A stretch of 32,000 nt of DNA. Origin: Caedibacter taeniospiralis. Its GTDB lineage: Bacteria > Pseudomonadota > Gammaproteobacteria > Francisellales > Francisellaceae. The first letter of the stretch is position 1. The number at the start of each line of letters is the position of its first letter. The stretch spans positions 21,318 to 53,317 of the forward strand of contig NZ_PGGB02000009.1 of assembly GCF_002803295.2 (NCBI RefSeq), read 5' to 3'. Under the pieces are notes generated by a model that saw nothing but the letters and a program-made list of their open reading frames with translations, did not search any database and was not told the DNA's origin. The translations under genes were made by a program, and so were the position numbers. Positions 3-32,000 of the stretch are shown here, one piece after another.

Positions 3-275
3 ACTGCACATTTATTGGAATATGCAGATAAGGGTTTTGTCTCCCCTGTATTAGTTGATAGTACCGTCCTGACACAGATCTATAATGGTGTCTACGGTTA
101 CCTTGGCTATCAAAATCTTTCTGATCAATATGACAAGCATTATAGGAACGAGTATATTGTTTTAGGTAATAAGAGTCAGGAAGGATTAAATAGGGATAAA
201 CAGGGTGCCTCGGGCCTCATGATAGATTTTGTATATCCATACACAAAATCGAATCGGCTATCCTCGGCGGTATAA
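3..275 (+). CDS. hypothetical protein, 5' end outside window; frame stops just inside the GC-rich repeat
   Basis: The frame is open from nt 3 (the ORF track lists it from TTG at 15). I recognise no motif. TAA at 273-275 lies a few nt inside the repeat block that starts at 268, so the native 3' end may have been displaced. Confidence 0.35.
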   Translation, partial: TAHLLEYADKGFVSPVLVDSTVLTQIYNGVYGYLGYQNLSDQYDKHYRNEYIVLGNKSQEGLNRDKQGASGLMIDFVYPYTKSNRLSSAV

Positions 276-569
276 ATTTTGCCCGGGCCGCCCGCCTCAA
301 CGGTGCTTGTCCTCACAAATTCGCTACGCTCATTCCGAACAGACAACACGTTTCCGATTCTACTCTACGCCTTGGGTAAAAGCTTTTTCACAGACTTCGC
401 TCTGGCGCCTTCGGCACGCGGTATAAATTTTGCCCGGGCCGCCCGCCTCAACGGTGCTTGTCCTCACAAATTCGCTACGCTCATTCCGAACAGACAACAC
501 GTTTCCGATTCTACTCTACGCCTTGGGTAAAAGCTTTTTCACAGACTTCGCTCTGGCGCCTTCGGCACG
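268..569 (+). repeat. two head-to-tail copies of a 151-bp GC-rich unit (268-418 and 419-569), identical by eye
   Basis: Direct comparison shows cggtataaattttgcccgggccgcccgcctcaacggtgcttgtcc...ctctggcgccttcggcacg occurring twice with period 151. Track ORFs 229-426, 279-530 and 430-705 are only translations of this repeat. Confidence 0.95.
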
Positions 570-643
570 TCGCTTGCTGATCAACAGCGCAAGGCTACCC
601 GGGTCTACTCGCCCTCGCGTTCCGCTATCCATGGCTCGCAGCG
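569..643 (+). repeat. 75-bp segment, copy L; exact reverse complement of 31926-32000
   Basis: gtcgcttgctgatcaacagcgcaaggctacccgggtctactcgccctcgcgttccgctatccatggctcgcagcg directly abuts the second 151-bp unit. I checked the reverse complement of the last 75 nt of the window base by base. Confidence 0.95.
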
Positions 644-664
644 GAGGTAGAACAGCACCATCCC

Positions 665-1453
665 ATGTTCCAAGAAATCAACTATGCTATAGAGCTTCTA
701 TATGATCAGTTGAGCAAATCTGCAGAGGTTGATATCAGTAAAATTGCACAGGCATTGGTTAATTCACGCCATATTAATTCAATCGTACGGGCTATAAAAC
801 ATTATGAAAATCATAAATTTAACGCGCTTTTGCCCAACAACCCTGACAATGCAGCGTTTAACGCCATCAACCAAAGCCTGCTGCCACTTTATACTTATTT
901 AAAAGATCACAATATCAAGCTTGAGAGCTTTATTGGTGACTTGAATAAAATGAGAATAGCCAAAGTTGAGTTGAACGAAAAACTGGAGAATTTACTTGAG
1001 CTTATAACAAACAATACAGACAAGACAAAAGCCCCACTGAATAGTTATCTTTACACCTATTACCAGGAAGGGACTGTTCAGGTTGGTGATAAACAGATCA
1101 AGGTATGTTTGCCAAGATGTGTTCTGGATGCGTATGATCCTGCTTCTGCTAGTAAGAATACGGGATCATATAATCTGCAAACAGTGGTCAACAATCTTAA
1201 AGAAGCCTTAGAAGAAGCTAGTGATAGTGTTCTCCAAACGCCCATCGCAAAAATTAACGACACGAGAAAGAGTCTGGATAAATGTTATGAGGTAGTCTTA
1301 AAAAAACCATTTAAAGAACAACTCGAGCATGATGGTAAAGTGCTATTTGAAAAGGCTCCGAACAACGAGTTAAACAAAGACTCGAAAAACATGGAGTGGC
1401 TGTTTTGTGATAATAACGGAAAAGAGAAGAATGTGAGTCTAGACAACGCATAA
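665..1453 (+). CDS. hypothetical protein (orphan, K/E/N-rich, effector-like composition)
   Basis: 262-aa ORF with coding-like composition throughout and no recognisable motif. The frame is also open upstream to 581, inside the repeat, so the ATG at 665 may not be the ancestral start. Confidence 0.55.
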   Translation: MFQEINYAIELLYDQLSKSAEVDISKIAQALVNSRHINSIVRAIKHYENHKFNALLPNNPDNAAFNAINQSLLPLYTYLKDHNIKLESFIGDLNKMRIAKVELNEKLENLLELITNNTDKTKAPLNSYLYTYYQEGTVQVGDKQIKVCLPRCVLDAYDPASASKNTGSYNLQTVVNNLKEALEEASDSVLQTPIAKINDTRKSLDKCYEVVLKKPFKEQLEHDGKVLFEKAPNNELNKDSKNMEWLFCDNNGKEKNVSLDNA

Positions 1454-2723
1454 CAGGCAGATCACGTACCCTAAACTGCCAAGACAGTTTTCTGAAAATT
1501 CCTCTCACACCTGATTTTAGTGCCATTAGCCTTATGAATACTCGAGACCCTTCAGATAGGGGTATAAATCCCCACTTAGGCTTTTCTCTATCAAGCGGGA
1601 ACTTGCCCGCTACGCTGGCGAGCATCGTGAAAAGCACCTCGCCTGAGGTTGATTTTATATAAGGATGCGGATGGGTATAGCTATTAGCCTCAAGACTCTG
1701 TGCCGCTCCGCATAGCCCCCACTGATCAGTAATTCCCTTAAAATAACTTTCTTCAATCTTGCCACTGATTAATTTTGCATAAGAAGCATGAGTAACCCAG
1801 TTATGATAATTAATATAGTGATAGAACGCCCAATAACCAGAACCACCTATATCAGCATTGTTCCAGGTCATTCTTACGACATAAAGAGGAGCGGGGGCAA
1901 AGTGGCGCTGTCCTAATCTGCCCATAGCCGTCAAAATTTCCCGCTCTTCACTATCTCTATCCTCCCACGCTACATTACTATGAATAGTTTTATATGTGCT
2001 AAACGCTATCGAAATACCATTAGTGTTAATCGTAAAGCCATCTAAAAGGTCATTCGACACAGCACCCAGCTGATTTGGGCTTAGGCGAAAAAATGGCATT
2101 TGATAAAGATGTTCATTAAGCGACTCCTCAAACGCCCGTTTATTTTTGGCTTGCTCTTCTTCCAGCTTTATTTTCGAAAGTGCTAAATCCTCCTTATGCT
2201 GTTCCAGCTGATTATACAAAGTAGCCACCTTTTCACTAACCCCGTCAGTTTGATAGAGATACTTATTCAGAAATTCGTCAAACGCTAACACATGTTTGAC
2301 CTGTTCTTCTTCAAGTTTTCTTTTCGAAAGCGCTAAATCCTCCTTATGCCCTTCTAGCTGATTATACAAAGTAGCTACCTTTTGATTAACCTCGTTAGTT
2401 TGATAACGATAGTCACCCAGAAACTCATTAAATGCTAACGTATGCTTGGCTTGTTCCTCTTCTAGCTTTATTTTGGAAAGGGCTAAATCCTCCTTATGCT
2501 GTTCCAGCTGACTACGCAAGCTGTCTATTGTTTCCTTTGTGTCGTCGTAATAAACGGAGCTGACTGTTACATCACCACTGACTTCGAGATCATTTTCCTT
2601 ATTTTCTCCCACGATCTCATATTCATCACCAATCTCAGACCCTGGGTGGGCGAAAGCATAATTCGCTGTTGTTGGTATACTTAAAGCACACAAGCCTAAA
2701 CAGACGCTAAGCCTGACATACAT
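1311..2723 (-). CDS. secreted coiled-coil repeat protein with orphan C-terminal domain
   Basis: Start chosen at the ATG giving MYVRLSVCLGLCALSIPTTANYAFA-HPG, a Sec signal peptide with an AxA-like site. It has three ~50-aa repeats (LEQHKEDLALSKIKLEEEQAK...). The last ~47 aa overlap the convergent ORF 665-1453 and look non-coding in composition. Confidence 0.7.
   Translation of the reverse strand: MYVRLSVCLGLCALSIPTTANYAFAHPGSEIGDEYEIVGENKENDLEVSGDVTVSSVYYDDTKETIDSLRSQLEQHKEDLALSKIKLEEEQAKHTLAFNEFLGDYRYQTNEVNQKVATLYNQLEGHKEDLALSKRKLEEEQVKHVLAFDEFLNKYLYQTDGVSEKVATLYNQLEQHKEDLALSKIKLEEEQAKNKRAFEESLNEHLYQMPFFRLSPNQLGAVSNDLLDGFTINTNGISIAFSTYKTIHSNVAWEDRDSEEREILTAMGRLGQRHFAPAPLYVVRMTWNNADIGGSGYWAFYHYINYHNWVTHASYAKLISGKIEESYFKGITDQWGLCGAAQSLEANSYTHPHPYIKSTSGEVLFTMLASVAGKFPLDREKPKWGFIPLSEGSRVFIRLMALKSGVRGIFRKLSWQFRVRDLPVMRCLDSHSSLFRYYHKTATPCFSSLCLTRCSEPFQIALYHHARVVL
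2105..2525 (-). repeat. three in-frame tandem repeats, period 150 bp, inside CDS 1311-2723
   Basis: The anchor gctaaatcctccttatgc recurs at 2182, 2332 and 2482 (period exactly 150). The units are diverged and the third copy is partial. Confidence 0.9.
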
Positions 2724-3205
2724 GCTCTTAACTTGACTCTTTTCGATAGATACTCCCTGTTGATCAAACCCATCCCGCAAATACCCTGCGCGATTACTCT
2801 TCTTGACTACTTCGGCGTCCTCGCACAATAACACCTCGACGACAGAGCTTCACATTGCCTGCACATCGACACGTAAAACCATCCAAAGACACCATGCGAC
2901 TTAGAGTACCAATGTAGGACTTAGGACTCTCAGCCACGACACCCGATGGTAGCACGCGGAATAAGAGCGAAGTAAGTAAATTAAAGTCATAACGAGAAAC
3001 AGAAGGCGTGATATGGTAAAGTTTCGTTTCGTGTAGTACTTGGGCTCTGGCTATCTTTCCGCCCATTACTAAGTGTGGGTTGTCAGTGTGACGGACACCG
3101 ATTACTCACACCGACACGCTTGGGCGAGTTATTTGCCCACTGATGTGCAACTTCGTGTCGCACGTGGAAATTTCGTCTAAGCCCTTTAATGTAATCCTTT
3201 TAGCT

Positions 3206-4624: not shown

Positions 4625-6370
4625 TTAATCAGTTGGATCTACCGTTTGGGTAATGCTGGTTTGCCTGACACATACCTTATGTAAAATAGCGTCAATGGTA
4701 TAAGGGATATGTTCTTTTTTCTGGGTGCGGCGACATTTATACTCGATCATATCCTCTTCCAGGGTTTGCTCCCCAATAATGAGCTGATGAGGGATCCCGA
4801 TTAAATCTGCATCGGCAAACATAATGCCTGCACGCTCCTTTCTGTCATCAAATAGAACGTCAAACCCTGCGGCACGCAAATCATTATGAAGTTTGGTGGC
4901 AACTTCAAACACTTTACTTGATCTGTGCATATTCATTGGAATAATTGCAATATCAAAAGGCGCAATTTCGCCTGACCAGATAATGCCATCTTTATCATGC
5001 GATTGCTCAATAGCTGCAGCAATAACTCGCGAGACACCAAAGCCATAACAGCCCATGATTAAATCCTGCTTTTTGCCATTTTCGTCAAGGATACTGGCAC
5101 CCATTGCTTTGGAGTAGTGATCACCCAGTTGGAAAATATGCCCCACTTCAATGCCGCTGGTTTGCTGGAGAACCCCCTTCCCATCAGGGGATAAATCTCC
5201 AATGACAACATTGCGGATATCAGCAAGCTCATAGCTTGCAATATCACGCCCCCAGTTGACGCCAAAAAGATGAAAATCATCTTCATTGGCGCCGCAGACA
5301 AAATCACTGAGCATCGCAGCACTATAATCAACAATGACAGGGATCGGAGCATTGACAGGTCCAAGTGATCCTGCGCTGGCTTTAAATACCACTTGAATCT
5401 CCTGATCACTGGCGAAAGTAAATGGTGCCGTAATCTGCAGCAGTTTTCCTACCTTGATTTCATTCAGCTCATGGTCACCTCGCACGACTAGTGCAAAGAG
5501 CTTATTATGGCTGTCTTTAATCACAAGCATTTTAACCGTTTTGATACTCGCAAGGTTAAATTGCTGACAAATATCATTGATCGTTTTGAGTTTCGGCGTA
5601 GCTCTTTTTTCTAATGCTTGGGCTGGCTTGGCACGCTGACTCAAATCGGGCTTTAAATATTCGGCCATTTCAATATTAGCCGCGTAATCACTTTGGTCAC
5701 TATAGCAAACAATATCCTCGCCAGCGGCAGCCAGCACCTGAAATTCATGCGTTTTACTGCCGCCGATGGCGCCCGCATCGGCGTTGACAACGCGAAACTC
5801 AAGTCCTATGCGTCGCAGAATATTACAATATGCCGTGTGCATTTTTTGATAAGTCTCTTCTAGACACTCGTAGCTGCTGTGAAAAGAATAAGCATCTTTC
5901 ATGATGAATTCACGCGCACGCATAACGCCAAAGCGTGGACGGATCTCATCACGGAACTTCGTTTGAATCTGATATAGATTCAGAGGGAGTTGCTTGTAGC
6001 TTTTTATTTCCTTACGCGCAATATCAACGATGGGCTCCTCATGGGTCGGACCATAACAGAAATCACGATGATGGCGATCCTGCATTTTTAGAAGCTCTGG
6101 TCCAAATTTTTGCCAGCGATGGGTTTCTTGTAATAGCTCAGCAGGCAGGATGCTCGGCATTAATATCTCGCAAGCGCCCGCCTTATCCATTTCCTCGCGG
6201 ACAATGGTCTTAACTTTTTGCAGCACTTTCATGCCCGTAGGCAGCCATTGATAAATGCCTGAGGCAAGTTTACGGATAAGCCCTGCTCTTAGCATGTACT
6301 GGTGACTGATCAGTTCAGCATCTTTAGGTGTTTCTTTTTCCGTGGCAAGTAAGGTTTGTGAGACTCTCAT
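4625..6370 (-). CDS. proS: proline--tRNA ligase (bacterial type with editing insertion)
   Basis: 581 aa. The N-terminus [46 protein letters not shown] and the overall length are typical of bacterial ProRS. Confidence 0.95.
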
Positions 6371-6516
6371 AATTTATGATTCAAAGGACGATAGGCGCTC
6401 ATATTAGTTCGTTTTTTCGGCGGGTTCAAGCAGATTTACAGAAAAACAGTTGACGCTTAGGTTGATAGCAAGGATATTAACGAGTTATTTAGTTTTTCAA
6501 TAGACCTGTACGCATA

Positions 6517-11600: not shown

Positions 11601-12887
11601 ATGAACCTGAGTTTTTCACAGCAGCTAAAAGCAGCCACTATTGATAGCGTTGCTGGTTTATTTAAAAGTCGCAAAATGCTGGTGATGTTTCTTTTGGGTT
11701 ACTCATCTGGTTTACCTTTGATGCTAACGGCGTCTTCACTCACGCTTTGGTATAAAGAGTCGGGTATTAGCATCAAAGATATTGGGTTACTAACCCTTGT
11801 GGCACTGCCATATACAATAAAGTATCTTTGGTCCCCCATCATTGATCGCATAAGTTTTAAATATCTGGGACACAGAAAGGGCTGGATCCTACTGATGCAG
11901 ATCCTGCTGATCTTTTGCGTGTTTTTATTAAGCCAGTTTTCTCCTGTGCAATCACCACTGATCATTGCATGGATTGCCTTGGCAATCTGTTTTTTCTCAG
12001 CAACACAAGATATCGCGATTAATGCTTATCAAACAGAAGTATTGAATGAAGATGAGCGCGCCTTGGGAAGTGCAGTGTCGGTGCTGGGTTACAGAGTGGC
12101 GATGATGGTAACGGGTGCCTTATTATTGATTTTTGTGCAGTATTTTGATAATGACTGGCAAAAGGGGATGTTGATGCTTCTGCCTTTTTTTGTAATTGCC
12201 ATAACGGGGACTTTTCTGGCACAAGAGGCTCAAGTGAGAAATCAGCCAAAAACCTTTGCCGATGCGGTAATCTTGCCGTTTTACGATTTTTTTACCCGTC
12301 GTGGCTTTGGTGTTGCAATCGCTGTGTTACTGGTTATTATTTTTTACAAATTTGGTGATGCGTTAGCTTTTTCCCTTAATACCGTATTTTTTTCAGAGCT
12401 TGGGTTTGATAAAACCACCATTGCACTTTCGTATAAAACCAATGCACTTGTCTTTACCCTCATTGGGCTTGTGTTGGGTGGAATGCTTGCTAAGGGATTT
12501 GGCTTGTTTCGTACCTTTTTAGTGTTTAGTCTCATGATGGCAACAGCCAATCTAATGTATATGTGGTTGGCATTTGTTGGTCAAAATTATTATCTGATGG
12601 TCATCTCGGTTGCCGTTGAATATATGGTAGGAGCCATGGGTACGGCAGTCCTTGTCGCAATGATTATGAGTCTAGTGAATAAAAGCTTCTCCGCAACACA
12701 GTTTGCGGTGTTAAGCTCCATCGACTCTTTAGGTCGGGTGCTCGTAGGTCCACTGGCGGGGAATATACAAGCAAACTGGGGATGGGAGGTATTGTTTTTC
12801 AGCAGTTTTCTGATCGGTATCATGGTCACCTGTGGCATCTGGCTTGCGCGCAGGCACATTATGTTGATGGCAGACCTGCATGGGTAG
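11601..12887 (+). CDS. ampG: muropeptide permease (MFS)
   Basis: 428-aa polytopic MFS protein. The LGYSSGLPL motif near the N-terminus is typical of AmpG. Confidence 0.88.
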   Translation: MNLSFSQQLKAATIDSVAGLFKSRKMLVMFLLGYSSGLPLMLTASSLTLWYKESGISIKDIGLLTLVALPYTIKYLWSPIIDRISFKYLGHRKGWILLMQILLIFCVFLLSQFSPVQSPLIIAWIALAICFFSATQDIAINAYQTEVLNEDERALGSAVSVLGYRVAMMVTGALLLIFVQYFDNDWQKGMLMLLPFFVIAITGTFLAQEAQVRNQPKTFADAVILPFYDFFTRRGFGVAIAVLLVIIFYKFGDALAFSLNTVFFSELGFDKTTIALSYKTNALVFTLIGLVLGGMLAKGFGLFRTFLVFSLMMATANLMYMWLAFVGQNYYLMVISVAVEYMVGAMGTAVLVAMIMSLVNKSFSATQFAVLSSIDSLGRVLVGPLAGNIQANWGWEVLFFSSFLIGIMVTCGIWLARRHIMLMADLHG

Positions 12888-14341: not shown

Positions 14342-14535
14342 CAAGCAACGGATGGCAACCTTAACGGATGAAGGTAGAAATGGATAGCCCCTCCCCCGCA
14401 TGGATGAATTGATGAGGATAAGGATATCCTGAAAACTAAAGGATAAAGTAAAGGAAGACATGGATAGCACTCCACCCACATGGATGAATTGGTTAGGATA
14501 GGGATATCCTGAAAACCTGACATTTTTCTCTTTGT
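14342..14535 (+). ncRNA. candidate CsrA/RsmA-titrating sRNA (RsmY/RsmZ/CsrB-like); boundaries approximate
   Basis: There are 12 GGA triplets on the + strand within 14350-14504, against 3-4 on the opposite strand. Several sit in an A(N)GGAUG context (acGGAtg x2, catGGAtga x2). Two hairpins present AGGA/GGGA in the loop (agga-taaggata-tcct at 14415-14430, agga-tagggata-tcct at 14495-14510). The last hairpin is followed by a T5 run at 14523-14527. There is no credible ORF. Confidence 0.45.
14380..14516 (+). repeat. two diverged 57-nt direct repeats, period 80 bp, each ending in a GATATC-centred palindrome
   Basis: Copy 1: atggatagcccctcccccgcatggatgaattgatgaggataaggatatcctgaaaac (14380-14436). 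Copy 2: atggatagcactccacccacatggatgaattggttaggatagggatatcctgaaaac (14460-14516). Confidence 0.85.
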
Positions 14536-15638
14536 TCCCTAATCCCCCATTCGATGTGTTCTAGCAATAATGAATGGTTGATGTACTTATTTCTAGCGTG
14601 ATACAGAATGCCAAGAATTTCAGCCGAAGCTGGGGCATTACCTAATGCAACGTATACATTTCTAAGCCAGGACTGGTAACCAATTCGGCGAATTGCTGAG
14701 CCTTCAGTGTGCTTCAAGAAATCTTCTTCTGACCATTGTGAGAGGGAAATGAGAGTCTGGTTGGTTAAATATGCTCGCGCCAAAAAATCATTTTCGCATG
14801 TTATTGGTGCATTTTTATTGATGGGACACACAAGCTGGCAATCATCACAACCGTAGATACGATTACCAATGGCCTGGCGATATTCCATCGGAATAACCCC
14901 TTTATTTTCAATAGTTAAGTATGAAATACACTTGTTGGCATCGATCATTCGATTTTCAACGATGGCGTTAGTTGGACAAGCCTTAATACAGGCCTGGCAT
15001 TTGCCACACTGATCGTGGGGCTTTGGTTGGGTAAATGCGCTAAAATCAAGACTGGAATAAATGCAGCCGATGAAGAAAAAAGAGCCCTCCGTGGGATGGA
15101 GCAAGTTACTGTTTTTGCCTATCCAGCCAAGTCCAGCCTTTTCGGCTAAGGGCTTTTCAAATACTGGTGCACTATCAGTGAAAACACGAGCCGCATATTC
15201 AGGGAAAAGCGTTTGAATATACTCAGATAATTTCACAAGTTTATTGCGTAAAACTTTATGGTAGTCTCTGCCGTGGGCGTAGATGGAAATAGCTGCCTTA
15301 TCAGAGGGCGTGCTTAATTTTTTACGAATATTTTTAATATCATAGCTTTGCGGTAAATAATTCAATCTCACAACGATAACGCTTTTAGTACCTGCGACAA
15401 GCTCCTCTGGCGTGTAACGTTTGCTGCCATGTTTGGTCATATACTCAAGCTCAGCGTGATAACCCTGTTCAATCCACAGGTGATATTTGGGAATATACTC
15501 ACTCAGGTTGCAATCGGTTGCACCAATATCAGAAAAATTAAGAGTTTTAAGTGCAAAGTCTTTAATGCGACTCCATTGTGTCGTGCTTACGTTACGCATT
15601 GTGTTGTCTGCTGTGAATTCAAGCACTTCTGACGGCAT
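14493..15638 (-). CDS. queG: epoxyqueuosine reductase
   Basis: Two 4Fe-4S motifs ([12 protein letters not shown] and CDDCQLVCP) and a QueG-like N-terminal domain. Start set at MPSEVLEF (15638) because the longer track ORF runs through the tRNA-Ser gene. Confidence 0.88.
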
Positions 15639-15715
15639 TGCAAGATTTCTTCTGCGCCAAAAGCTATTGTATCGATTGGTGTTAAAAGGTTTTGCGAGTG
15701 TGAAATCATTGGTTA

Positions 15716-15803
<88 letters not shown>

Positions 15804-16062
15804 GAATGTGCGCCAATTATAACGGCAATTTTGCAAATAGAAAGATGCTCATTTCATTTTTTTCCAAAAAAATAACACCCACAATTGCCATGATTGTAAT
15901 TTATACAGCAGCTTTACAAAAACGCCTAAATCATAAATTTAGCCCTTCTATTTAACCAGCTGACATGATAGAATCGCCACGCTTAAATTTTTAGGTTTAA
16001 ACCAACCTAAACAGAATCAGCAAAACTGAGTAGTTAATAATAAATAATTTAAGGTAACAAAG

Positions 16063-19753: not shown

Positions 19754-21982
19754 ATGCTAAGTAAGGAACTCGAACAAACGTTAAATCAAGCATTTCAGCA
19801 TGCCAGAGACCTGAAACATGAATATTTGACGGTAGAGCATTTGCTCAGCGCGTTGGTCGATAATGCAGATGCAAAAAAAGTTTTAAAAGCTTGTGGAGCA
19901 AACCTCTCAGAGCTTAAAAATATACTCAATACTTTTATTGAACAGTCCACCCCAAAAATTACTGAAGATGGCAAAGATACTCAGCCAACTTTGGGGTTTC
20001 AACGGGTATTACAGCGTGCGGTGTTTCATGTGCAATCTTCAGGTCGTGGAGAGGTACAAGGCTCTAATGTTTTAGTTGCGATCTTCAGCGAACAAGACAG
20101 TCAGGCGGTAAATTTCTTAAAGCAGCAAAATATTACCCGCCTTGATGTTGTTAATTATTTATCACATGGAGTCTCGAATAATGGTCAGGGCAGTGCCCAG
20201 CAACCAGTTTCAAGCGCTGCGGCAGAAGAGCAAAAAGAAAAAACACCACTTGAATTATATGCGGTTAATCTTAATCAACGCGCTAGAGAAGGCAAAATTG
20301 ACCGCTTGATTGGTCGCGACTATGAAATTGAGCGTGTCACACAGGTGCTGTGTCGCAGGCGCAAGAACAATCCGCTGTTGGTTGGCGAGGCGGGTGTCGG
20401 CAAAACCGCAATTGCCGAAGGTCTTGCCAAAAGAATCGTTGATAAGCAGGTTCCTGATGTCTTAGACAACGGGACAATCTATTCGCTTGACATGGGGACG
20501 ATGCTGGCTGGGACTAAATATCGTGGCGATTTTGAAAAACGCTTTAAAGAAGTACTGAAACAGCTCCAGGAGGAAGAGGGTGCTATTTTATTTATTGATG
20601 AAATTCACACCATTGTTGGTGCAGGAGCTGCCTCTGGTGGTGTGATGGACGCCTCTAATTTAATCAAACCAGCACTTGCCTCAGGCGATTTAAAATGTAT
20701 CGGCTCTACGACCTATCAGGAATACCGCACGATTTTTGAAAAAGATCACGCACTGGCACGAAGATTTCAAAAAATTGATGTCGAGGAACCGACGATTGAG
20801 CAGACTTATGAAATCTTAAAGGGATTAAAGCCTTACTTTGAAGATCATCATAATATCAAGTACACTTTGCCCGCACTTCAAGCAGCGGCTGAGCTCTCTG
20901 CCAAATACATCACTGAGCGCTTTTTACCTGATAAAGCGATTGATGTTATCGATGAACTTGGCGCATACCAGCGCACAAGTGGTAATGCAAAAAAGAAAAA
21001 ATTAATTAATGTCACTGACGTTGAGAATATGGTGGCGCGTCTTGCGCGTATTCCTGCCAAAACAGTATCGGCATCAGATAAAAGCTCAATGGTGAACCTC
21101 GGCAAGGATTTAAGAATGCTTGTCTATGGGCAGGACGAAGCCATTGAAGCCATGGTGGATACCATTAAACTAGCCAGGGCTGGACTTCGTGATCCCAATA
21201 AACCTTGGGGATCTTTCCTTTTTGCAGGTCCTACTGGTGTTGGTAAAACCGAAGTAACTCAACAGCTTGCCAATCTTCTTGGTGTTGAGCTTTTGCGTTT
21301 TGACATGTCCGAGTATATGGAAAGGCATACTGTATCTCGTTTAATTGGTTCACCCCCAGGTTACGTGGGTTATGAAGAGGGGGGGCTACTCACCGAGGCA
21401 GTAACCAAACACCCTTATGCAGTCGTTCTGCTTGATGAAATTGAAAAGGCTCACCCTGATATTTATAATCTGCTGTTGCAAGTCATGGATCATGGCACAT
21501 TAACGGACAACAACGGCAGAAAAGCAGATTTTAGAAATATTATTTTAATTATGACCACAAACGCAGGTGCTTTTGAATTGCAAAAAAATTCCATTGGCTT
21601 TGCTAAACAGGATAGTGCTCCTGATAGTATGGATGCGTTAAAACGCATCTTCACCCCTGAGTTTAGAAACCGCCTGGATGCTGTTATTCAGTTTGCGTCA
21701 CTGTCCAAAGAGGATGTTAAGTCGGTTGTTGATAAGTTTCTCGCACAGCTCCAAGGACAGCTTGATCCTCGCGGAGTGTCGCTTGAAGTTGACGACAAAG
21801 CGAAGGAATGGCTTGCTGAGCATGGCTACGATGAGAAAATGGGCGCCCGCCCGATGGCGCGTTTAATTCAGGAAACCATTAAAAAACCGCTGGCAGAAGA
21901 AATCCTGTTTGGCAAACTTGCCAGCGGCGGACGTGCTGAATTAACGGTTAAAAATAACAAACTAGCCTTCAAATACAGTTAG
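19754..21982 (+). CDS. clpA: ATP-dependent Clp protease ATP-binding subunit ClpA
   Basis: Two AAA+ modules (GEAGVGKT and GPTGVGKT Walker A). The [15 protein letters not shown]-terminus matches the usual ClpA start. GTG at 19721 is less likely. Confidence 0.95.
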
Positions 21983-22098
21983 CACAAGCATTTTCAAAAA
22001 ATAAAAAAGCCCGCCTGAGCGCCGCTTTCATATGCTCTTTGTCGATTGTTATGCTAAAATGTCGCCCACTTTAACACCCAAAAAATGAATTTATTCTA

Positions 22099-25088: not shown

Positions 25089-25256
25089 AGACTTATGTTA
25101 GTTAAATCTCTGTAATATATAGTTTTAATGCGTCGCACATAAAATTAGGTATACGTTTTGGCATACACATTAAAATTTCCATAATACAGCCCGTCTAATC
25201 AGACACAGCCAATACTATCACAAGGAATTATGAAAAACCATAAGGGGGATAAAATT

Positions 25257-25443
25257 CCAAGGCTGTCCCCATCTTAAATTTTAGACTTTTTCTGATTGGA
25301 ATTAGCAAAGAAATGGCTATGTCTCACGCTAAGTGTTAGTGAAATTGCTGAGAACAAAGCCTTTAATTTTGAACTTGATCTCAAATAAGCCACGCAATGT
25401 TTTTATCGTAACCAACTTACTAATTTAGATGGGACAGCCCTGG
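25257..25443. repeat. 187-bp unit bounded by ~22-bp imperfect inverted repeats
   Basis: The left arm is ccaaggctgtccccatcttaaatt (25257-25280). The reverse complement of the right arm (25422-25443) is ccagggctgtcccatctaaatt. They differ by one mismatch and two 1-nt indels. Confidence 0.75.
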
Positions 25444-31062: not shown

Positions 31063-31824
31063 ATGAGTGAGGGAGTGAGGGGAGTGAATCAAGAAATACA
31101 AACAGCCAATAATCAGGTGCCCATGGTCACCGATGAGCAAATCGGTAAGTATCTGGAGTCAATGGGGAATAACCTCAATCCCGTGCATAGAACACAGTTT
31201 ATTGAGCTTGCCAAGGCGTTTAATTTGAATCCATTTTTAAGGCAAATCCATGGCATTGCCTACGGTGATAAGTTTAACATCGTTGTGGGTTATGAGGTTT
31301 ATATTCAACGCGCTGAGCGCAGTGGTCAACTCGCAGGTTGGAAAGCCTGGACAGACGGAAAAGCGCCAGATTTAAAAGCCTGTATCGAAATTAAGCGCAA
31401 GAACTGGGTAGAAGCGTTTTATCACGAGGTTTATTTTGATGAGTATGTGCAAAACAATCCAATGTGGAAATCTAAGCCGCGCACCATGCTTAAAAAAGTC
31501 GCGATTGCCCAAGGGTTTAGAATGGCGTTTAGCCTGGAGTTAGGCGGAATCCCCTACACGCAGGACGAGTTGCCATCGAGCGAACCCATAGATGTCACCG
31601 CAAAGCAGGAGCGCTCAAAAAAAGGACCAGCACACCCAGTGGTAAACAAACTGTTATTTAAAATCCAGGAGGCAGGGCTGGATGCTAAGGATTTTGCCAA
31701 ATTTGCGCAGTTTAAATCGGAGGATTTAGAGAGCTGTCAACATGCGTTAAATAACTTGATGGACTTAGTTAAAGCTTACAAAGAATCAAAGCAAGAAAAA
31801 GCAAGAAAAAGCAAGAAAGGGTAA
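31063..31824 (+). CDS. recT: RecT-family single-strand annealing recombinase
   Basis: FIELAKAFNLNPFLRQIHGIAYGDKFNIVVGYEVYIQRAERSG and NPMWKSKPRTMLKKVAIAQGFRMAF fit the RecT family pattern. Confidence 0.75.
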   Translation: MSEGVRGVNQEIQTANNQVPMVTDEQIGKYLESMGNNLNPVHRTQFIELAKAFNLNPFLRQIHGIAYGDKFNIVVGYEVYIQRAERSGQLAGWKAWTDGKAPDLKACIEIKRKNWVEAFYHEVYFDEYVQNNPMWKSKPRTMLKKVAIAQGFRMAFSLELGGIPYTQDELPSSEPIDVTAKQERSKKGPAHPVVNKLLFKIQEAGLDAKDFAKFAQFKSEDLESCQHALNNLMDLVKAYKESKQEKARKSKKG

Positions 31825-31830
31825 TTGACC

Positions 31831-31944
31831 ATGAAGCTTTATGATATTAATCAGGAAATTATGCAGGTTATCTGCGAAGCGGTTGACGTTGAAACAGGCG
31901 AAGTGATCGCTGAGCTTGATACCGACGCTGCGAGCCATGGATAG
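31831..31944 (+). pseudogene. Gp157-like phage gene truncated after ~32 codons by the 75-bp repeat
   Basis: MKLYDINQEIMQVICEAVDVETGEVIAELDTD resembles the N-terminus of Sipho_Gp157-type proteins, which usually sit next to recT/erf. From 31926 the sequence is the repeat, and the frame stops at TAG 31942-31944. Confidence 0.5.
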
Positions 31945-32000
31945 CGGAACGCGAGGGCGAGTAGACCCGGGTAGCCTTGCGCTGTTGATCAGCAAGCGAC
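31926..32000 (-). repeat. 75-bp segment, copy R (inverted relative to 569-643); cut by the window end
   Basis: Exact reverse complement of 569-643. Identity starts at cgctgcgagccatgg and runs to the last base of the window. Confidence 0.95.

What the first reader, a model, noticed from the sequence alone, without database searches (positions are those of the whole stretch)
31831..32000. Inverted copy of the 75-bp segment truncates a phage gene, implying recent insertion
The ORF starting at 31831 has a Gp157-like N-terminus and sits where such genes normally do, next to recT. It loses its frame exactly where identity to the 569-643 segment begins (31926). A repeat that interrupts a coding sequence inside a prophage is most simply explained by transposition or insertion after prophage acquisition. 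The outer boundary of the repeat is sharply defined at both copies (...gctcgcagcg|gaggta on the left, taccga|cgctgcgagc on the right). Both flanks have TACC two nt from the junction when read in the same orientation (ctacctc| and gataccga|), which may hint at a target preference.
Basis: partly seen in the sequence, partly recalled or inferred. Interest (0 to 1): 0.65.

Follow-up and report, generated by a model that had tools for sequence, protein, structure and literature searches.

The report
Small mobile repeat splits phage gene
A 292-bp non-coding mobile repeat, present in many near-identical copies in the Paramecium endosymbiont Caedibacter taeniospiralis and its R-body plasmid, has recently jumped into a prophage Gp157 gene and split it. 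The event is ordinary, but the element has no inverted ends and makes no target duplication, which points to an unusual rolling-circle type of transposition.

Summary
Window 31926-32000 is a perfect inverted copy of 569-643. The ORF at 31831 matches the first 31 residues of the 162-aa Gp157 of a related Fastidiosibacter prophage, and similarity stops exactly at 31925.

The 75 bp is the 3' end of a 292-bp non-coding repeat. Copy 1 is window 201-643 and carries a private 151-bp tandem duplication. There are five more copies on C. taeniospiralis plasmid pKAP298 and at least 20 junctions in metagenome contigs.

A 137-aa C. taeniospiralis Gp157 protein, from a contig the same size as the window's own, starts with seven residues read from the element's other end and then continues at Gp157 residue 33. 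The gene therefore resumes straight after the element, with no duplicated residues. This is a simple, recent insertion.

Copy 1 also splits a gene, and one pKAP298 copy splits the portal gene.

The element has no terminal inverted repeats, no target duplication, no ORF and no RNA-structure signal. It always sits 5' of NNNG (G at +4 in 25/25 junctions), and its own first four bases (NAGG) fit the same rule. That is the layout of IS91-type rolling-circle elements. No transposase was found, so the mechanism is inferred.

The parts
31831..31925 (+). 5' fragment of a Sipho_Gp157-family gene: codons 1-31 plus the first two bases (GA) of codon 32
   Evidence: The 31 residues are identical to F. lacustris Gp157 (162 aa). 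DNA similarity to L002 and L003 ends at 31925.
31926..32000 (-). 3'-terminal 75 nt of element copy 2. The element's forward strand lies on the window's minus strand, and the copy continues beyond the window end.
   Evidence: It is 75/75 identical to 569-643 and to the pKAP298 copies. The element's far (5') end is inferred from the N-terminus of P0129, MRPEAPF, which is the reverse complement of AGGGTGCCTCGGGCCTCAT.
31926..31944 (+). Six element-encoded codons (DAASHG, with the GA of codon 32 supplied by 31924-31925) and the TAG stop that end the truncated Gp157 ORF
   Evidence: Translation.
201..643 (+). Element copy 1: 443 nt, made of the 292-nt element plus an internal perfect 151-nt tandem duplication (267-417 / 418-568). 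The 5' end is CAGGGTGCCTCGGGCC and the 3' end is CCATGGCTCGCAGCG.
   Evidence: The base at 201 co-varies with internal subfamily SNPs and so belongs to the element.
3..200 (+). Upstream part of a large gene of unknown function that is split by copy 1. The gene runs off the window start.
   Evidence: This is an open frame of 66 codons that joins in phase to 644-1453 once 201-643 is removed. Homologue P0196 aligns colinearly across the junction.
644..1453 (+). Downstream part of the same split gene. The mechanical ORF 665-1453 lies within it.
31084..31824 (+). RecT recombinase gene (GTG start) immediately upstream of gp157
   Evidence: Pfam RecT. It is identical to P0121, which is 246 aa on a 74,898-nt contig.
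644..647 (+). Target tetranucleotide GAGG (NNNG) immediately 3' of copy 1
   Evidence: Flank logo: G at +4 in 25/25 junctions.
31922..31925 (-). Target tetranucleotide of copy 2 (TCGG in element orientation, CCGA on the + strand)
   Evidence: The orthologous empty site in L002 reads TCCG, so the G is target-derived.

Best explanation
Shown: window 31926-32000 is the 3' end of a second, inverted copy of a 292-bp non-coding, non-autonomous mobile element. Its ends are 5'-[C/T/A]AGGGTGCCTCGGGCC...CCATGGCTCGCAGCG-3'. The element has inserted between the second base of codon 32 and codon 33 of a prophage Sipho_Gp157 gene in the Caedibacter taeniospiralis chromosome. The gene is split into a 37-codon stub and a 3' part that starts immediately after the element. 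Nothing in the target was duplicated or lost. The copies are 99-100% identical and the rest of the gene is still open, so the insertion is recent. The same element has also split the gene at window 3-200/644-1453 and the portal gene of plasmid pKAP298.

Inferred (about 0.4 on its own): the element moves by a single-strand, HUH-nuclease rolling-circle route of the IS91 type, with the enzyme supplied in trans.
- The 3' end acts like an oriIS that must be followed by a tetranucleotide NNNG.
- The 5' end acts like a terIS and itself begins with NAGG.
- In a circular intermediate the 3' end would therefore again be followed by NNNG.
- Integration takes place 5' of an NNNG in the target, usually A^(A)N(T)G.
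For: Insertion into gp157:
- The repeat is confirmed.
- The 31 N-terminal residues are identical to an intact 162-aa orthologue, and DNA homology ends at 31925.
- P0129, named 'siphovirus Gp157 family protein [Caedibacter taeniospiralis]', lies on a 74,898-nt contig. That is the same contig size as for the window's RecT (P0121). P0129 reads MRPEAPF (reverse complement of the element's 5' end) followed by residues 33-162.

Mobile, multicopy element:
- There are 5 copies in pKAP298.
- There are 20 metagenome contigs. 17 of them end 82-130 nt (mostly 120-127) into the element with a different 3' flank each, two stop inside the element with the 5' flank attached, and one holds a complete copy. This is the pattern of an assembly-breaking repeat.
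- An empty site exists in pKAP298 for the insertion seen in L012.

Genes split by other copies:
- Removing 292 nt gives the longest junction-spanning frame in 6 of 7 complete copies.
- Homologue P0196 aligns across the copy-1 junction.
- Phage portal proteins align across the pKAP298 junction.

IS91-like signature:
- No terminal inverted repeat and no target duplication.
- G at +4 in 25/25 junctions, P about 3e-18. This G is target-derived in both empty sites.
- The element's first tetranucleotide, NAGG, obeys the same rule, and its first base is polymorphic but heritable.
- IS91-family elements have two different ends, make no TSD, insert 5' of a tetranucleotide next to oriIS, have a related tetranucleotide at terIS, and transpose with only 89 + 82 bp of ends (PMC13181058; PMC10288648; PMC5876387).
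Against: - The source contig could not be retrieved. The DNA beyond 32000, the interior and length of copy 2, and the exact base at the far junction are therefore inferred from one protein sequence.
- No IS91-like (Y2) or any other candidate transposase was found in the window, in pKAP298 or in about 120 kb of metagenome flanks.
- The tetranucleotide differs from the IS91 family. IS91 members use CTTG, GTTC or GTCC, with T at position 2. Here only position 4 is fixed and C never occurs at position 1.
- Subterminal hairpins are not better than shuffled sequence.
- No significant strand bias relative to GC skew (14/21, p = 0.19) or to neighbouring gene orientation (11/21).
- One empty site has T instead of the usual A just 5' of the insertion point.
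Confidence: 0.85

Rival explanations
1. It is a classical MITE: a deletion derivative of a DDE-transposase insertion sequence (for example IS4502/IS256-like or Tn5403/Tn3-like, both on pKAP298), moved by cut-and-paste.
For: The element is small, non-coding and multicopy and occurs in both orientations. DDE transposase genes are present on pKAP298 and in the metagenome relative.
Against: The ends do not form an inverted repeat better than shuffles do (714/2000 and 347/3000). No target duplication is seen at 8 copies with both flanks known or inferred. The ends show no similarity to any other sequence in pKAP298 apart from one 47-nt relic.
Confidence: 0.04
2. It is an IS200/IS605-type derivative (a PATE-like element), moved as single-stranded DNA by a Y1 TnpA. 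On this reading the opposite strand is the active one, and the element inserts 3' of a tetranucleotide CNNN.
For: There is no TIR and no TSD, and the ends are asymmetric. Read on the other strand, the flank is C-A-W-T^ with C invariant, and the element itself ends in CCTN^. There is an 8-11-bp AT-rich hairpin about 22 nt from one end.
Against: The two ends do not carry similar hairpins, and the folding energies are not significant (z = -1.4 and +0.7). Target specificity is far looser than the fixed 4-5-nt targets of this family. There is no significant lagging-strand bias. No Y1 gene was seen.
Confidence: 0.12
3. It is moved by a site-specific or DEDD recombinase (IS110/IS1111-like, IS607-like serine, or Tn554/Tn916-like tyrosine enzyme).
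For: These families also lack a TSD and often lack a TIR. A Xer-like tyrosine recombinase is encoded on pKAP298.
Against: IS110-type elements need 10-14 nt of defined target, whereas here the flanks are diverse. No shared core di- or hexanucleotide brackets the element. No surplus 'coupling' bases are present: exactly 292 nt are added.
Confidence: 0.1
4. It is a retro-mobile, SINE-like RNA copied by the group II intron reverse transcriptase of pKAP298.
For: One copy (L001 38855-39145) lies directly 5' of a 5'-truncated group II intron in the same orientation.
Against: The 5' base that looked non-templated is inherited with subfamily SNPs. There is no RNA-structure signal and no Rfam match. The ends are precise and there is no poly-A or 3' heterogeneity. 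The adjacency is seen once only.
Confidence: 0.04
5. The gene is not really disrupted, because the segment is a self-splicing intron or a functional RNA.
For: Phage genes often carry group I/II introns. The element length is close to a multiple of three.
Against: No Rfam match even at E = 10. Folding z-scores are +0.5 on both strands. The element lies antisense in gp157 but sense in the portal gene and in the copy-1 gene. Many copies are intergenic.
Confidence: 0.02
6. It is an artefact: an assembly mis-join at a repeat, or an inversion between the two inverted copies that brought unrelated sequence next to gp157.
For: Repeats of this size break short-read assemblies, as the metagenome contigs show. 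The two copies are inverted and 31 kb apart.
Against: Each copy is flanked by the two halves of one and the same gene. That excludes an inversion between them and makes a mis-join unlikely. RecT and the 3' Gp157 fragment are recorded on a contig of the same length.
Confidence: 0.03

Closest known systems
IS91 family (IS91, IS801, IS1294; HUH Y2 rolling-circle insertion sequences) and mini-IS91 constructs
   Same: Two different ends instead of inverted repeats. No target duplication. Orientation-specific insertion 5' of a short motif that stays next to one end. A related motif at the start of the other end. About 90 + 80 bp of ends is enough for movement in trans (PMC13181058).
   Different: The motif here is NNNG, with consensus A-N-T-G, C never first and only G fixed. 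IS91 members use CTTG, GTTC or GTCC, with T always second. There is no sequence similarity to known members that I could test, no transposase was identified, and natural 292-bp non-autonomous derivatives are not a described feature of the family.
IS200/IS605 family and its non-autonomous derivatives (PATEs, REP/BIME with RAYT)
   Same: No TIR and no TSD, asymmetric ends, and a flank motif on one side only. These are single-strand HUH chemistry (PMC5876387; PMC3333891, listed).
   Different: This family needs similar subterminal hairpins at both ends and a fixed 4-5-nt target. Neither is seen here.
Bacterial MITEs (for example Correia/NEMIS, ERIC, RUP)
   Same: Size class, no coding capacity, many near-identical copies, and insertion into or next to genes.
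   Different: MITEs are defined by terminal inverted repeats and a fixed-length target duplication. Both are absent here.
Rickettsia palindromic elements (RPE), from my own knowledge
   Same: Short repeats in an obligate intracellular bacterium that are found inside protein-coding genes.
   Different: RPEs are palindromic, insert in frame and are translated. This element adds 292 nt (3n+1), introduces stops and splits the gene.

Membership tests
Sipho_Gp157 (PF05565), for the interrupted gene | Sequence match to the family, at the usual position next to recT | tested here: met
   The 37-aa stub alone gives no Pfam hit. However, its first 31 residues are identical to a 162-aa protein carrying PF05565 that directly follows RecT. 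The C. taeniospiralis 3' fragment P0129 carries PF05565.
MITE (DDE-mobilised) | Terminal inverted repeats | tested here: not met
   The best end-to-end alignment is no better than shuffles (714/2000; 347/3000).
MITE (DDE-mobilised) | Target-site duplication of fixed length | tested here: not met
   Seven copies with both flanks known show no direct repeat. The Gp157 protein resumes at residue 33 with no repeated residue.
MITE (DDE-mobilised) | Small, non-coding, multicopy | tested here: met
   The element is 292 nt. Its only long frame has no homologue among 5.8 billion proteins. At least 27 junctions were found.
IS91 family (HUH Y2, rolling circle) | Two functionally distinct ends, with no TIR and no TSD | tested here: met
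   Family definition from PMC13181058.
IS91 family (HUH Y2, rolling circle) | Oriented insertion 5' of a conserved tetranucleotide (CTTG/GTTC/GTCC) adjacent to oriIS | tested here: inconclusive
   A tetranucleotide rule exists and is strictly oriented: NNNG, with G in 25/25, T at +3 in 15/25 and A at +1 in 16/25. It is not the family's motif, since T at position 2 is not conserved.
IS91 family (HUH Y2, rolling circle) | terIS end begins at a tetranucleotide related to the target motif | tested here: met
   The element starts with C/T/A-A-G-G, which fits NNNG. The first base is polymorphic between subfamilies.
IS91 family (HUH Y2, rolling circle) | Imperfect subterminal palindromes at oriIS and terIS | tested here: inconclusive
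   Hairpins can be drawn near both ends, but their energies are within the shuffle range.
IS91 family (HUH Y2, rolling circle) | A Y2 HUH transposase (PF04986) in the same genome | not testable with these tools
   The source genome is absent from the searchable collections. None was seen in the window, pKAP298 or the metagenome flanks.
IS200/IS605-derived element | Similar subterminal hairpins at both ends and a fixed 4-5-nt target 5' of the left end | tested here: not met
   The hairpins at the two ends are unrelated and not significant. Only one flank base is invariant.
IS110/IS1111 | Insertion into a defined target of 10 nt or more | tested here: not met
   The 25 3' flanks and 9 5' flanks are diverse outside single positions.
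Group I / group II intron | Conserved ribozyme structure, always sense to the host gene | tested here: not met
   No Rfam hit at E <= 10 apart from noise. z-scores are +0.5. The element lies in both orientations relative to the split genes.

The most novel reading that the evidence does not exclude
The element represents an undescribed family of non-autonomous rolling-circle (HUH-type) transposons. It would be a natural 'mini-IS' made only of an ori-like and a ter-like end, whose sole strict sequence requirement is a G four bases beyond the ori-like end. It would have been recently active between the chromosome and the R-body plasmid of an obligate endosymbiont and in free-living or host-associated relatives. 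It may be driven by an enzyme not currently classed as a transposase, such as a plasmid or phage Rep.
Probability: 0.3. Interest if true: 0.6.

Novelty: new variant of a known kind. Interest (0 to 1): 0.4.

Why it matters
For the window itself the result is housekeeping. A prophage accessory gene and a large gene of unknown function in C. taeniospiralis are pseudogenes made by a repeat, and annotation pipelines turn the fragments into chimeric 'proteins'. P0129 and the pKAP298 CDS at 25138-25374 both appear to start with the element-encoded MRPEAP.

More broadly, the element is a clean natural data set of about 27 junctions, two empty sites and several subfamilies. It describes a transposon that leaves no duplication and has no inverted ends. 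Non-autonomous derivatives of such elements are hardly documented in bacteria, and repeat finders built around TIR and TSD miss them.

The element also shows ongoing exchange of mobile DNA between the chromosome and the killer plasmid of an obligate endosymbiont. Its inverted copies are substrates for rearrangement.

Tried and rejected
Retrieving the sequence beyond 32000:
- Exact-protein look-ups for five window or contig proteins all returned 'not on record', including RecT with the correct GTG start and the 3' Gp157 fragment.
- Two genome-contig scans and one viral-contig scan with element patterns gave nothing.
- The continuation therefore had to be inferred from protein P0129.

Properties of the element that were tested and not found:
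- Structured RNA or intron: no Rfam match at E <= 10 and no folding signal on either strand.
- Terminal or subterminal inverted repeats: not significant.
- 1-3-nt target duplications with shifted boundaries: none fits (reasoned).
- A non-templated extra base at the 5' junction: rejected, because that base is inherited with subfamily SNPs.
- Promoter- or terminator-like sites inside the element: none.
- Lagging-strand or gene-orientation bias: not significant.

Search for an autonomous parent or a transposase:
- No related ends elsewhere, apart from a 47-nt relic at L001 48084-48130.
- No matches to pKAP298 transposases next to the metagenome copies, other than a shared Tn5403-like region.
- An IS91-motif regular expression hit only a dGTPase-like ORF.
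- Pfam on ten further pKAP298 ORFs gave nothing relevant.
- The element's long reading frame has no protein homologue.

Literature:
- Nothing on this repeat was found in the held library. The pKAP298 paper itself (Jeblick and Kusch 2005) is not held.

Full report
**1. The observation**

The window ends with 75 bases (31926-32000) that are a perfect reverse complement of 569-643. The repeat finder extends the arms by six more bases (644-649 / 31920-31925), of which only four match. Those six bases are flank.

The ORF that starts at 31831 encodes MKLYDINQEIMQVICEAVDVETGEVIAELDT, then six unrelated residues (DAASHG) and a stop at 31942-31944. The gene upstream is a RecT recombinase.

**2. What the gene should look like**

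A search with RecT found close relatives (89-90% identity) in Fastidiosibacter lacustris and in two metagenome contigs. In all three loci RecT is followed directly by a 162-residue Sipho_Gp157 gene.

- The first 31 residues of the F. lacustris protein are identical to the window's stub.
- At the DNA level the 81%-identical alignment runs from window 30891 and stops exactly at 31925, one base before the repeat.
- No other part of gp157 is present in the window.

**3. Where the rest of the gene is**

The window's own contig is not retrievable. Its RecT is nevertheless listed as an unnamed member (P0121, 246 aa) of a protein cluster, on a 74,898-nt contig.

A search with the intact Gp157 returned P0129, 'siphovirus Gp157 family protein [Caedibacter taeniospiralis]', 137 aa, also on a 74,898-nt contig. 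Its sequence begins MRPEAPF and continues KLTSLKIAREAKVLNLGKF..., which is Gp157 from residue 33 to the end. MRPEAP is the translation of ATGAGGCCCGAGGCACCC, the reverse complement of the other end of the repeat element.

The gene therefore resumes immediately beyond the element. This identifies the organism, shows that the event is a simple insertion, and shows that no residue, and hence no more than two bases, is duplicated.

**4. What the repeat is**

The 75 bases are the 3' end of a longer unit. The same unit occurs at 99-100% identity four times, plus one internally deleted copy, on the R-body plasmid pKAP298 of C. taeniospiralis.

- Alignment fixes a constant 291 nt, from AGGGTGCCTCGGGCC to CCATGGCTCGCAGCG.
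- The base just before it is C, T or A. It co-varies with internal subfamily SNPs, so it belongs to the element, which is therefore 292 nt.
- In the window, copy 1 is 201-643. Its extra length comes from a perfect tandem duplication of 151 nt that no other copy has.
- One metagenome scan with a 24-mer returned 20 contigs. 17 of them stop 82-130 nt (mostly 120-127) inside the element and have a different 3' flank each, two stop inside the element with the 5' flank attached, and one holds a complete copy. This is the signature of a multicopy repeat that breaks assemblies.
- Their flanks carry chromosomal genes of a Francisella-like gammaproteobacterium (gyrA, secD, type IV pilus genes, DUF3573) and a Tn5403-like region 99% identical to pKAP298.

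**5. It splits other genes too**

Removing exactly 292 nt gives the longest open frame across the junction in six of seven complete copies.

- Copy 1: window 3-200 joins in phase to 644-1453, and a 723-aa homologue (P0196) aligns colinearly across the join.
- pKAP298: the copy at 21747-22037 sits in a P22-type portal gene. Phage portal proteins align 11-21 residues past the junction in the frame predicted by removing 292 nt.
- Overall, insertions are under-represented in open frames. 15 of 34 junctions abut a frame of at least 60 codons, against 79% of random positions, as expected if many genic insertions are removed by selection.

Each window copy is flanked by the two halves of one gene, so the 31-kb segment between the inverted copies has not been inverted.

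**6. What the element lacks**

- It has no ORF with any homologue.
- It has no Rfam match and no folding signal on either strand.
- It has no promoter- or terminator-like site.
- It has no terminal or subterminal inverted repeat beyond chance.
- It has no target-site duplication.
- It lies sense in two split genes and antisense in gp157, so it is not an intron.

**7. Insertion signature**

- Across 25 3' junctions the fourth flanking base is always G (P about 3e-18). +3 is T in 15, +1 is A in 16 and never C, and +5 is never G.
- Across nine 5' junctions the base before the element is always A.
- Two empty sites show that NNNG is target sequence rather than part of the element. They are the orthologous gp157 of F. 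lacustris (...TCCG) and pKAP298 position 12502, which is unoccupied where metagenome contig L012 carries a copy (...AATG).
- The element's own first four bases, [C/T/A]AGG, obey the same NNNG rule. If the ends were joined in a circle, the 3' end would again be followed by NNNG.

**8. Mechanism**

The combination is: two unlike ends, no duplication, strictly oriented insertion 5' of a short motif that stays beside one end, and a related motif opening the other end. This is the published architecture of IS91-family rolling-circle elements.

- In that family the oriIS is followed by CTTG or GTTC.
- The terIS starts at CTCG or GTTC.
- 89 + 82 bp of ends are enough for transposition in trans (PMC13181058).
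- General properties of HUH transposons are given in PMC10288648 and PMC5876387.

I therefore rank a trans-mobilised, IS91-like single-strand mechanism first, at about 0.4. It is an inference with several weak points:

- The motif is not the IS91 motif.
- No transposase of any kind was found with the element.
- The hairpins are not significant.
- There is no significant strand bias.

IS200/IS605-like, recombinase-type and retro-mobile alternatives remain possible at lower weight. A classical DDE MITE is contradicted by the missing TIR and TSD.

**9. Verdict**

Four corrections apply:

- There is no target duplication.
- No ORF follows.
- The 151-bp unit is a private duplication in copy 1.
- 'TACC' reduces to one invariant G.

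The event itself is ordinary pseudogenisation in an endosymbiont. The element is an uncharacterised family whose end structure and insertion signature set it apart from standard MITEs. I found no description of it in the held literature, but the original pKAP298 paper could not be read.

Noticed in passing
window 31788-31818: A perfect 10-nt tandem repeat (AAAGCAAGAA, 3.1 copies) lies at the 3' end of recT and is absent from the F. lacustris and metagenome orthologues. It changes the RecT C-terminus (...KQEKARKSKKG) and removes the recT/gp157 overlap seen in the relatives.
   Followed up: partly
window 2099-2548 (ORF 1311-2834, minus strand): Three diverged 150-nt tandem repeats (71-82% identity) lie inside a 507-aa ORF with no Pfam match. 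This is a repeat-containing protein of unknown function next to the gene split by copy 1.
   Followed up: no
window about 6000-6500: Cumulative GC skew has its minimum here, and gene orientation switches from minus (proS and the genes to its left) to plus. This could be a replication origin or terminus, or simply a strand switch. No dnaA was seen.
   Followed up: no
window 14371-14436 / 14451-14516: A 66-nt direct repeat (85% identity, 80-nt spacing) lies in the stretch just downstream of the queG-like gene.
   Followed up: no
window 15716-15803: tRNA-Ser(TGA) on the minus strand lies inside the 5' extension of the mechanical ORF 14493-15836 (queG-like). The real gene start must be downstream of the tRNA.
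   Followed up: no
L001 (pKAP298) 39146-41058: A 5'-truncated group II intron lies here: domains D1-D4 match from model position 101 at 39185-39360, a 341-aa RT ORF is at 39601-40626, and DV/DVI are at 40945-41058. It begins 40 nt after the 3' end of an element copy, in the same orientation. The missing intron 5' end suggests an element-associated deletion.
   Followed up: partly
L001 (pKAP298) 25138-25374 and protein P0129: The reverse strand of the element's 5' end supplies an outward-reading ATG (MRPEAP...). P0129 clearly starts there, and by its coordinates the pKAP298 CDS at 25138-25374 does too, giving chimeric 'proteins'. No Shine-Dalgarno sequence is evident upstream, so these are probably annotation artefacts.
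   Followed up: partly
L001 (pKAP298) 31990-32124: An internally deleted element copy (83 + 29 nt, 112 in total, joined at a GCCC microhomology) abuts a run of TTTTTGA iteron-like repeats beside the 435-aa HTH_36 protein gene, near the ParA and HU genes. This may be the plasmid's replication region.
   Followed up: no
L001 (pKAP298) 48084-48130, minus strand: A 47-nt sequence is 81% identical to the first 47 nt of the element and starts at the same AGGGTG. It lies upstream of a hypothetical gene and shows no similarity beyond that point. It may be a relic of an older relative or the source of the element's 5' module.
   Followed up: partly
L011, L012 (metagenome contigs JACCDZ01...): These contigs carry Tn3-family transposase and Xer-like recombinase genes 98-99% identical to Tn5403 of pKAP298, but with the segment 8772-10186 of pKAP298 missing. 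L012 also has an element copy at a site that is empty in pKAP298.
   Followed up: partly
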